In this document: in pieces, positions 61,580 to 61,725 of the stretch
How positions within the stretch are numbered: the stretch's first letter is position 1
Layout of the letters: every line of letters begins with the position of its first letter
DNA from: Escherichia coli
GTDB lineage: Bacteria > Pseudomonadota > Gammaproteobacteria > Enterobacterales > Enterobacteriaceae
DNA length: 64,000 bases
Strand: one strand, 5' to 3'
NCBI RefSeq assembly: GCF_009931435.1
Contig: NZ_CP043414.1
The notes under the pieces: generated by a model
What the model was told of the DNA's origin: nothing
The model's database searches: none
Seen by the model: the letters and a program-made list of their open reading frames with translations, nothing else
Position numbers and translations under genes: made by a program

Positions 61580-61725
61580 GTTCAATACTATTAGCCAGTG
61601 GCTAACATTGCAAGCGTTAGCGATTTCTTCAGCTGGCGAAGGGACAGTTTGCTATACATGGTGGTGAAAGAGGATTGATATACTTTCATCGGGTCGCTGC
61701 CGTACCAAGCCTTGTCCGAATCCGG

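What the first reader, a model, noticed from the sequence alone, without database searches (positions are those of the whole stretch)
61651..61710. A gor-derived fragment is embedded in the agr repeat region
The segment gctatacatggtggtgaaagaggattgatatactttcatcgggtcgctgccgtacc matches gor coding sequence at about 62438-62495 at roughly 80% identity, in the same orientation. Translated on the - strand it gives ...YGSDPMKVYQSSFTTMY, against Gor ...[17 protein letters not shown]. This suggests the agr/dinQ repeats arose partly from a duplication of the gor 3' region, or that an old gor fragment was co-opted. I do not recall this being described.
Basis: seen in the sequence. Interest (0 to 1): 0.5.

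Follow-up and report, generated by a model that had tools for sequence, protein, structure and literature searches.

The report
Decayed gor fragment between agrA and agrB
A short, decaying copy of part of the glutathione reductase gene (gor) sits between the two Agr antitoxin RNA genes of E. coli; it is most likely a non-functional scar of the old local duplication that made the two Agr genes, so it is useful as a historical marker but not a new kind of element.

Summary
Window 61653-61705 matches gor 62439-62491 without gaps at 44/53 bases, in the same orientation. The local score is 61, against 23.2±2.2 for shuffles. At protein level it matches Gor residues 363-383 (12/21, E=2e-7).

The fragment lies outside both Agr transcripts. 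It starts 23 nt downstream of the end of the dinQ-proximal copy (agrA) and lies 76-128 nt upstream of the start of the arsR-proximal copy (agrB, the functional antitoxin).

It is present in 3,841 of 5,426 complete E. coli genomes, in E. whittamii, and, with the same junction, in E. albertii. The E. albertii relic also keeps gor's last 30 nt including the stop codon. The original copy therefore ran from about codon 362 to the stop, and it is at least as old as the E. coli/E. albertii split.

It is the fastest-evolving piece of the locus: 29% difference between the window and K-12, with 4-bp and 15-bp deletions in some strains. It is removed by agrA×agrB recombination in some strains.

Best reading: a neutral relic of a tandem duplication of [gor 3' part–dinQ–agr], followed by loss of the second dinQ. 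I found no description of it in the papers I could search. Interest is modest.

The parts
61653..61705 (-). gor' core: decayed copy of gor codons 363-381 (source segment 62439-62491)
   Evidence: 44/53 identical without gaps, score 61 against shuffles 23.2±2.2. BLASTP E=2e-7 to Gor 363-383.
61627..61652 (-). Probable continuation of gor' with indels. It holds the 8-mer CCGCCAGC, which may correspond to Gor codons 386-388 or, alternatively, to part of the gor tail.
   Evidence: The 8-mer is collinear within 1 nt. The E. whittamii gapped alignment spans 74 nt with 61 identities. Not significant on its own.
61706..61713 (-). Junction J1: a few filler bases between the end of the agrA repeat unit and gor'. 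The same junction is found in E. coli haplotypes, E. whittamii, SCPM-O-B-8794 and E. albertii.
   Evidence: Alignments.
61728..61812 (-). agrA, the dinQ-proximal Agr sRNA copy with weaker complementarity to dinQ. Its terminator ends 23 nt before gor'.
   Evidence: Rfam RF02891 at 90.7 bits. Matches the dinQ target at 28/34 here and 25/34 in K-12. Named following Weel-Sneve 2013, which gives 25/31 for agrA.
61495..61577 (-). agrB, the arsR-proximal Agr sRNA copy and the functional antitoxin. gor' lies at -76 to -128 from its start.
   Evidence: Rfam RF02891 at 90.0 bits. Matches the dinQ target at 30/34 here and 31/34 in K-12. Weel-Sneve 2013 gives 30/31 for agrB.
61584..61613 (-). agrB promoter: -35 TTGCAA at 61608-61613 and -10 TAGTAT at 61584-61589. 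It is conserved between haplotypes, unlike gor'.
   Evidence: Read from the sequence. Diversity is 0.05 here against 0.16 for gor'. The paper reports consensus-like -10 and -35 boxes.
61481..61615 (-). Direct repeat unit B (agrB with its terminator flank and proximal promoter), repeated at 61714-61850
   Evidence: Local alignment of 61481-61658 to 61714-61892. Identity is high as far as the -35 box.
61714..61850 (-). Direct repeat unit A (agrA with its terminator flank and proximal promoter)
61980..62012 (+). Third partial repeat: the Agr target sequence in the dinQ 5' UTR
   Evidence: 33-nt match to both agr copies. Varies together with agrB among haplotypes.
62087..62170 (+). dinQ ORF (27-aa toxin, GTG start)
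   Evidence: ORF and sequence. RefSeq annotation of the identical genome.
62224..63576 (-). gor (glutathione-disulfide reductase, 450 aa), the parent of the fragment
   Evidence: ORF. Annotated as gorA. Homologues.
61591..61929 (-). Spurious ORF that RefSeq annotates as a hypothetical protein (WP_162754263.1). It is kept open by the gor' reading frame and overlaps agrA and the promoters.
   Evidence: The frame is broken by a 4-bp deletion in K-12-type alleles.

Best explanation
The segment is a non-functional pseudogene relic of the 3' part of gor. The most likely history has three steps. (1) In an ancestor of E. coli and E. albertii, a block of about 0.8 kb was duplicated in tandem. The block ran from gor codon ~362 through the gor stop codon, dinQ and the single agr gene to about 15 nt past the agr terminator. 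This gave gor–dinQ–agr–[junction J1]–gor'–dinQ'–agr'. (2) The second toxin copy (dinQ') and most of gor' were then lost by internal deletions. This left agrA–gor' relic–agrB, with agrB retained as the working antitoxin. (3) The relic has since drifted neutrally. It is lost altogether when agrA and agrB recombine. Shown here: the homology, its position, its orientation, the shared junction, the relic of the gor stop-codon end in E. albertii, and the lack of constraint. Inferred: the duplication-then-deletion order of events. As stated (relic plus this particular path) I give it 0.62. That it is a neutral gor relic of some local rearrangement I put at about 0.85.
For: The homology is far above chance. 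The order and orientation are what a tandem duplication predicts: agrA, then gor' in gor's own orientation, then agrB, inside a pair of ~135-nt direct repeats offset by 233 nt. Junction J1 is the same in the window type, K-12 type, E. whittamii, SCPM-O-B-8794 and E. albertii, so it arose once. The E. albertii relic keeps codons 363-368 and also the last 30 nt of gor including TAA (25/30; score 40 against 20.2±2.1, maximum 32). The original copy therefore ran to the stop codon. The source looks like Escherichia gor: only 1 of 55 positions has lost the gor state in every allele, and the alleles are marginally closest to Escherichia gor. Escherichia gor shows no 5'/3' discontinuity at codon 362 against Citrobacter or Klebsiella, with third-position divergence of 0.39 versus 0.38 for C. 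koseri. This gives no support to an imported 3' end. Neutral drift is supported as follows. The window and K-12 differ at 0.286 in the core, plus a 4-bp deletion. Adjacent agr, promoter and dinQ segments differ at 0.03-0.09, and four-fold sites at 0.11-0.19. Strain AW1.7 has a further 15-bp deletion. The fragment is absent from 1,585 of 5,426 genomes. It is cleanly removed by a 233-bp agrA×agrB deletion in L002 and L003. The age is consistent: gor'-gor divergence of 0.12-0.2 compares with half the E. coli-E. albertii four-fold divergence, 0.24/2. Tandem multiplication of agr genes recurs in this family, with 5 AgrB copies in two arrays on a Salmonella IncFII plasmid. Weel-Sneve 2013 already presumed a tandem duplication of agrA/agrB.
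Against: No lineage with a dinQ' remnant or a long gor' was found, so the intermediate is hypothetical. E. albertii and Escherichia sp. E1V33 have only one agr, so extra losses must be assumed. Plasmid agr arrays duplicate a ~115-nt unit without foreign DNA, so agr can duplicate without involving gor. Several different flanks all diverge within a few nt of the same point next to the agr terminator. This could instead mark a module end or a rearrangement hotspot. The window-versus-K-12 divergence of the core (0.29) is higher than four-fold-site divergence (0.11-0.19), which is unexplained, though n=49.
Confidence: 0.62

Rival explanations
1. Insertion scar. The dinQ-agr module, a mobile type I toxin-antitoxin cassette, entered next to gor together with a replacement gor 3' end. 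One crossover was homologous inside gor and the other end joined illegitimately at gor codon ~362. gor' would then be the displaced original 3' end of the resident gor, and agrB would have arisen later by a second, separate duplication.
For: dinQ-like/agr modules are mobile: 3,082 plasmid records, a chromosomal copy in Hafnia without gor, and a plasmid stability function. Citrobacter has gor followed directly by yhjA-treF or other genes with no dinQ, so the module was inserted at this site. E. albertii has one agr plus gor' running to the stop codon, which would be the primitive state under this model. The event count is similar to that of the duplication model.
Against: There is no divergence discontinuity between the gor 5' and 3' parts against outgroups. 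The fragment is Escherichia-like. In E. coli, agrB follows gor' directly in the order a single tandem duplication predicts. Under this model a second duplication plus deletion of a second gor' is needed, and no gor-like sequence lies beyond agrB.
Confidence: 0.2
2. Functional co-option. The gor-derived sequence is kept because it does something: an upstream element or operator for the agrB promoter, a source of RNA that pairs with gor or other transcripts, or a small protein (the ORF annotated as hypothetical).
For: It lies at -50 to -128 of the promoter of the functional antitoxin. The agrB upstream region from -66 to -10 aligns with the gor tail, stop codon and 3' flank (score 15 against 8.3±1.5, p≈0.002), about as well as with the agrA promoter (13, p≈0.004). 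That stretch is conserved, with diversity 0.05. The relic has persisted since before the E. albertii split. RefSeq annotates an ORF across it in window-type genomes.
Against: The core is the least conserved part of the locus, with non-triplet deletions. 29% of genomes lack it. Single-agr strains use the agrA-type promoter. It lies outside both Agr transcripts as placed by Rfam and has the same sense as gor, so it cannot pair with gor mRNA. The consensus scan found no plus-strand promoter in the spacer, and both agr terminators look bidirectional. The ORF is broken in K-12-type alleles and overlaps an sRNA gene.
Confidence: 0.1
3. Chance similarity or an assembly artefact.
For: The match is short (53 nt).
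Against: The score is about 17 sd above shuffles. It is supported at protein level. The fragment is present at the same place in 3,841 complete genomes and in other Escherichia species.
Confidence: 0.01

Closest known systems
agrA/agrB tandem sRNA genes of the dinQ type I toxin-antitoxin locus (Weel-Sneve et al. 2013, PMC3567139; Kristiansen et al. 2016, PMC5066626)
   Same: Same locus. The authors already presumed that agrA and agrB arose by tandem duplication, with agrA partly degenerate. The fragment sits in the spacer between them.
   Different: The papers describe the spacer only as intergenic sequence with promoters and terminators. No gor-derived piece, duplication boundary or age is given. 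The fragment is not part of either sRNA.
Duplicated gene ends left beside insertions. The example recalled from memory, not tested here, is the icd 3' fragment (icdC) beside prophage e14 in E. coli K-12.
   Same: A short copy of the 3' part of a housekeeping gene, in the same orientation, lying just beyond inserted DNA while the gene itself stays intact.
   Different: No integrase or phage is present here. The copy does not currently reach the gene's end in E. coli. The gor 3' end shows no sign of foreign origin. The intervening DNA is a toxin-antitoxin module.
Tandem arrays of type I antitoxin or toxin-antitoxin units. Tested here: plasmid dqlB/AgrB arrays. From memory: the ldr/rdl and ibs/sib repeats of E. 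coli.
   Same: Repeated local duplication of small antisense RNA genes. A Salmonella IncFII plasmid has 5 AgrB-family copies.
   Different: Plasmid arrays repeat a ~115-174-nt unit with no host-gene fragment. Only the chromosomal E. coli locus has a piece of the neighbouring gene caught between copies.

Membership tests
gor (glutathione-disulfide reductase gene) - as a gene fragment / pseudogene | Nucleotide similarity to gor above chance, collinear and in the same orientation | tested here: met
   44/53 identical; score 61 against 23.2±2.2; unique pair in the window
gor (glutathione-disulfide reductase gene) - as a gene fragment / pseudogene | Similarity at protein level in the corresponding frame | tested here: met
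   12/21 identical to Gor 363-383, E=2e-7. The motif [12 protein letters not shown] is conserved across Enterobacterales Gor.
gor (glutathione-disulfide reductase gene) - as a functional gene | Full-length ORF with Pyr_redox domains under purifying selection | tested here: not met
   Only about 19-26 codons remain. There are 4-bp and 15-bp deletions in other strains, and diversity is 0.16 against 0.02 for the parent segment.
AgrB RNA family (Rfam RF02891) | Covered by a match to the covariance model | tested here: not met
   Matches are at 61495-61577 and 61728-61812 only. Nothing at gathering score covers 61653-61705.
Relic of a tandem segmental duplication | Flanked by direct repeats, with the relic in parental orientation and in the order predicted for unit [gor'-dinQ-agr] | tested here: met
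   Repeat units at 61481-61615 and 61714-61850; order agrA-gor'-agrB
Relic of a tandem segmental duplication | A single shared junction across lineages (one event) | tested here: met
   The same J1 in E. coli haplotypes, E. whittamii, SCPM and E. albertii
Relic of a tandem segmental duplication | Remnant of the rest of the duplicated unit (dinQ') or an intermediate allele | tested here: inconclusive
   E. albertii keeps the gor' stop-codon end, but no dinQ' remnant was found in any locus examined. The survey was limited to 9 species-level hits and a handful of E. coli alleles.
Target-gene end duplication by an integrating mobile element | The 3' end of the intact gene is of foreign origin (divergence step at the copy boundary) | tested here: not met
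   Third-position divergence 5' versus 3' of codon 362 is 0.39/0.38 for C. koseri, 0.53/0.51 for K. variicola and 0.43/0.35 for C. portucalensis
Target-gene end duplication by an integrating mobile element | Integrase or recombinase associated with the inserted block | not tested
   Only ORFs between arsC and rlmJ were listed and none is recombinase-like by inspection. No profile search was run.

The most novel reading that the evidence does not exclude
The gor relic is larger than the 53-nt core and was partly put to use. Under this reading, the conserved stretch just upstream of agrB (-66 to -10, including the -35 box TTGCAA and the palindrome TTAGCCAGTGGCTAA) descends from the last codons, the stop codon and the 3' flank of the duplicated gor copy. 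The promoter of the functional antitoxin AgrB would then have been assembled from debris of a housekeeping gene after the duplicate toxin was deleted.
Probability: 0.2. Interest if true: 0.45.

Novelty: new member of a known kind. Interest (0 to 1): 0.27.

Why it matters
The fragment gives physical evidence for how the two-antitoxin architecture of the dinQ/agrAB locus arose, a process the original authors only presumed. The duplicated block reached about 270 nt into gor, and the event is at least as old as the E. coli/E. albertii split.

It also serves three practical purposes:
- It is a marker for typing the locus: two deep haplotypes, plus single-copy deletion forms that lack it.
- It explains a spurious 'hypothetical protein' in RefSeq annotations of window-type genomes.
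- It warns that the agrA-agrB spacer is not free-standing regulatory sequence.

It does not reveal a new mechanism.

Tried and rejected
- **Chance match:** rejected by shuffles and by the protein comparison.
- **Other gor-like pieces in the intergenic region, on either strand:** none found. The best reverse-strand score was 20.
- **Extension of homology beyond the core:** the collinear 8-mer CCGCCAGC is suggestive but not significant alone. The gor-tail alignment to the agrB upstream region is only p≈0.002-0.004, and it competes with homology to the agrA promoter. I left this as a hypothesis.
- **Codon-position bias:** 6 of 7 differences in the E. whittamii allele fall at third codon positions. 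I considered this as a sign that the source was a diverged functional gor. I rejected it as unreliable because other alleles show all combinations at the same C/T sites and the invariant FTAMY motif is broken (ATA).
- **Donor identification:** the alleles are only marginally closer to Escherichia gor than to Citrobacter gor, 47-48/55 against 46/55.
- **L008 chimeric gor contig:** I considered it as a natural recombinant at the same site. It is 100% identical to K-12 on one side and was assembled at 1.7x coverage, so I treat it as a probable assembly chimera.
- **gor-like sequence next to plasmid or Hafnia dinQ-like modules:** none found.
- **Literature:** no mention of a gor fragment, remnant or pseudogene at this locus.
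- **Promoter scan of the spacer:** no plus-strand promoter that could make an anti-gor RNA.

Full report
**Where we are.** The end of the window is the E. coli arsRBC–agr–dinQ–gor–rlmJ region. The features are:
- arsC 59210-59635(-), arsB 59648-60958(-), arsR 60992-61345(-)
- two Agr sRNA genes at 61495-61577(-) and 61728-61812(-) (Rfam RF02891, 90 bits each)
- dinQ, a 27-aa ORF at 62087-62170(+)
- gor 62224-63576(-) and rlmJ from 63648

A RefSeq E. coli genome (strain 2020CK-00188) is 100% identical over 61346-62500.

On naming: the arsR-proximal copy matches the dinQ target better (30/34 here, 31/34 in K-12) than the dinQ-proximal copy does (28/34, 25/34). Weel-Sneve et al. 2013 report 30/31 for agrB and 25/31 for agrA. 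I therefore call 61495-61577 agrB (the functional antitoxin) and 61728-61812 agrA.

**Observation.** Positions 61653-61705 align without gaps to gor 62439-62491, 44/53 identical, on the same strand. The local score is 61. For 300 shuffles of the whole intergenic region against gor on both strands, the mean is 23.2, sd 2.2 and maximum 32. A degenerate 38-mer built from the two copies occurs nowhere else in the window. In gor's frame the fragment reads YGSDPMKVYQSSFTTMYSKLS, against Gor 363-383 [21 protein letters not shown] (12/21, E=2e-7).

Homology may run on, with indels, to about 61627. An 8-mer, CCGCCAGC, is collinear within 1 nt, and in E. whittamii a gapped alignment covers 74 nt with 61 identities. 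That extension is not significant by itself.

**Anatomy.** The two agr genes belong to direct repeat units of about 135 nt (61481-61615 and 61714-61850), offset by 233 nt. Identity is high from about 13 nt beyond the terminator, through the sRNA, to the promoter's -35 box. The gor-like piece lies in the ~98-nt unique spacer between the units. It begins 23 nt after the end of agrA and ends 76 nt upstream of the start of agrB. It is therefore in neither transcript. It also has the same sense as gor, which rules out the suggested pairing of Agr RNAs with gor mRNA. A consensus scan shows no plus-strand promoter in the spacer.

**Distribution.**
- The spacer is present in 3,841 of 5,426 complete E. 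coli genomes. It comes in two deep haplotypes: about 810 are window-like (≥95%), including O55:H7, and about 3,029 are K-12-like (~82%).
- K-12 has the fragment with a 4-bp deletion. Strain AW1.7 has a further 15-bp deletion.
- Some strains have a single hybrid agr, produced by a clean 233-bp agrA×agrB deletion that removes the fragment (L002, L003). Others have an agr×dinQ-repeat deletion (L004) or an IS200/IS605 insertion (L005).
- A pattern scan of one genome per species found the locus in three other Escherichia lineages. E. whittamii has agrA–gor'–agrB–arsR, with a fragment 87% identical to gor. An 'E. coli' species representative, SCPM-O-B-8794, has agrA–gor'–arsC, with agrB and arsRB deleted. 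Escherichia sp. E1V33 has one agr, no gor', and lies next to slp.
- E. albertii has one agr followed by the same junction and a short gor'.

**The E. albertii relic.** After the same junction it keeps TACGGCGGCAATCAGGTA (Gor YGGNQV, codons 363-368). Then, 16 nt later, it has a 30-nt match to the very end of gor including the stop codon (25/30). The score is 40, against 20.2±2.1 and a maximum of 32 for shuffles. The original copy therefore ran from about codon 362 to the stop. The junction arose once, before E. coli and E. albertii separated. The divergence figures agree: gor' differs from gor by 0.12-0.2, and half of the E. coli–E. albertii four-fold-site divergence is 0.12.

**Constraint.** Across six two-copy alleles the core has the highest diversity in the locus, at 0.164. 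Between the window and K-12 it is 0.286, plus gaps. For comparison:
- parent gor segment: 0.02
- agrB promoter: 0.05
- most of dinQ: 0.03
- four-fold sites of gor and arsR: 0.11-0.19

Non-triplet deletions and frequent loss fit neutral decay. RefSeq annotates a 112-aa hypothetical protein (61591-61929, minus strand) over agrA and gor' in the window-type genome. It overlaps an sRNA gene and is broken in K-12-type alleles, so I regard it as spurious.

**Origin.** Only one of 55 positions has lost the gor state in every allele. The alleles are slightly closer to Escherichia gor than to Citrobacter or Klebsiella gor. Escherichia gor shows no step in divergence at codon 362 against outgroups, so an imported gor 3' end is not supported. 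In C. koseri, gor is followed directly by yhjA–treF. dinQ-like/agr modules are abundant on conjugative plasmids (3,082 records) and act as stability modules. The module was therefore inserted beside gor at some earlier time.

The simplest path to agrA–gor'–agrB is a tandem duplication of [gor codon ~362…stop–dinQ–agr], followed by deletion of the second dinQ and most of gor'. The main rival is an insertion scar, in which gor' is the displaced end of the resident gor and agrB arose from a later duplication. That model needs a second duplication and a further deletion, and it is not helped. However, it fits the one-agr state of E. albertii. I could not find an intermediate allele, so the order of events remains inferred. 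Tandem multiplication of agr is common in this family, with five AgrB copies in two arrays on one Salmonella plasmid.

**A loose end.** The conserved agrB upstream region (-66 to -10) aligns to the gor tail, stop codon and 3' flank (score 15 against 8.3±1.5, p≈0.002). This is about as good as its alignment to the agrA promoter (13, p≈0.004), whereas the agrA promoter does not resemble the gor tail. If the similarity is real, part of the agrB promoter was built from gor debris. The evidence is thin, and the 9-mer CTTGCAATG, shared with agrA at the same distance from the start, argues the other way.

**Known or new.** The key papers describe the two sRNAs as 'presumably tandemly duplicated' and do not mention a gor piece. 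Full-text searches for a gor fragment, remnant or pseudogene at this locus found nothing. RefSeq leaves the fragment unannotated, or covers it with a hypothetical ORF. The kind of object, a gene fragment left by a local duplication or insertion, is well known.

**Verdict.** This is a real feature that I did not find described, and an ordinary relic. It is useful for reconstructing the history of the dinQ/agrAB locus and for correcting annotation.

Noticed in passing
window 61546-61577 (agrB 5' part) and 61980-62012 (dinQ target); K-12 locus L001: The antisense interaction region is hypervariable between haplotypes (mean pairwise difference 0.13-0.14 against 0.03-0.05 in the flanks), and it changes in step in dinQ and agrB. 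K-12 has GAGAGAGTTCTTATC in both. The window has GAGATTGCCCACATC and GAGAATGCCCACATC. This points to toxin-antitoxin co-evolution or to gene conversion among the three direct repeats.
   Followed up: partly
L002, L003, L004, L005 (E. coli genomes): The locus is structurally unstable. I saw a 233-bp agrA×agrB deletion giving one hybrid agr, a deletion between agr and the dinQ repeat that removes both promoters, an arsRB deletion, and an IS200/IS605 (tnpA/tnpB) insertion between agr and dinQ.
   Followed up: partly
window 61591-61929 (-): RefSeq annotates a 112-aa hypothetical protein (WP_162754263.1) here in the genome identical to the window. It overlaps agrA, both promoters and the gor relic, and it is frame-broken in K-12-type alleles. 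It is probably a spurious call.
   Followed up: partly
L008 (uncultured MAG contig, 1.7x coverage): The first ~760 nt (agr, dinQ, gor 3' end) are 100% identical to K-12, and the rest of gor is only ~65% identical, yet the ORF is intact. The switch lies inside the conserved gor stretch that is also the parent of the relic. This is probably an assembly chimera, but a real recombinant is not excluded.
   Followed up: partly
L007 (Acinetobacter haemolyticus, 424-bp contig), L010 (Lachnospiraceae MAG, 1061-bp contig): Short contigs in non-Escherichia assemblies carry E. coli arsR/agr/dinQ sequence at 90-97% identity. This is likely contamination or mis-binning.
   Followed up: no
L021 (Salmonella IncFII plasmid), L022 (IncI1/IncFIB plasmid), L009 (Hafnia paralvei chromosome): dinQ-like (dqlB) modules with AgrB-family sRNAs are widespread: 3,082 plasmid records, mostly conjugative. 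L021 has two dqlB genes preceded by arrays of 2 and 3 AgrB copies, with periods of about 174 and 115 nt. Hafnia has a chromosomal copy that is not next to gor.
   Followed up: partly
window 61591-61605: A perfect 6-3-6 palindrome, TTAGCC-AGT-GGCTAA, lies between the -35 and -10 boxes of the agrB promoter. It is conserved in all two-copy alleles and absent from the agrA promoter. It could be an operator, or a remnant of something else.
   Followed up: no
window 61346-62500 compared with K-12: The window's arsR–gor interval is only 92% identical to K-12. Only 10 of 5,422 genomes are ≥99% identical. arsR four-fold sites differ by 0.19, which is as much as against E. whittamii. This suggests deep haplotypes or introgression at this island boundary.
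   Followed up: no
L006 4631-4933 (E. albertii): In E. albertii the ars operon is replaced beyond the gor relic by unrelated sequence.
   Followed up: no
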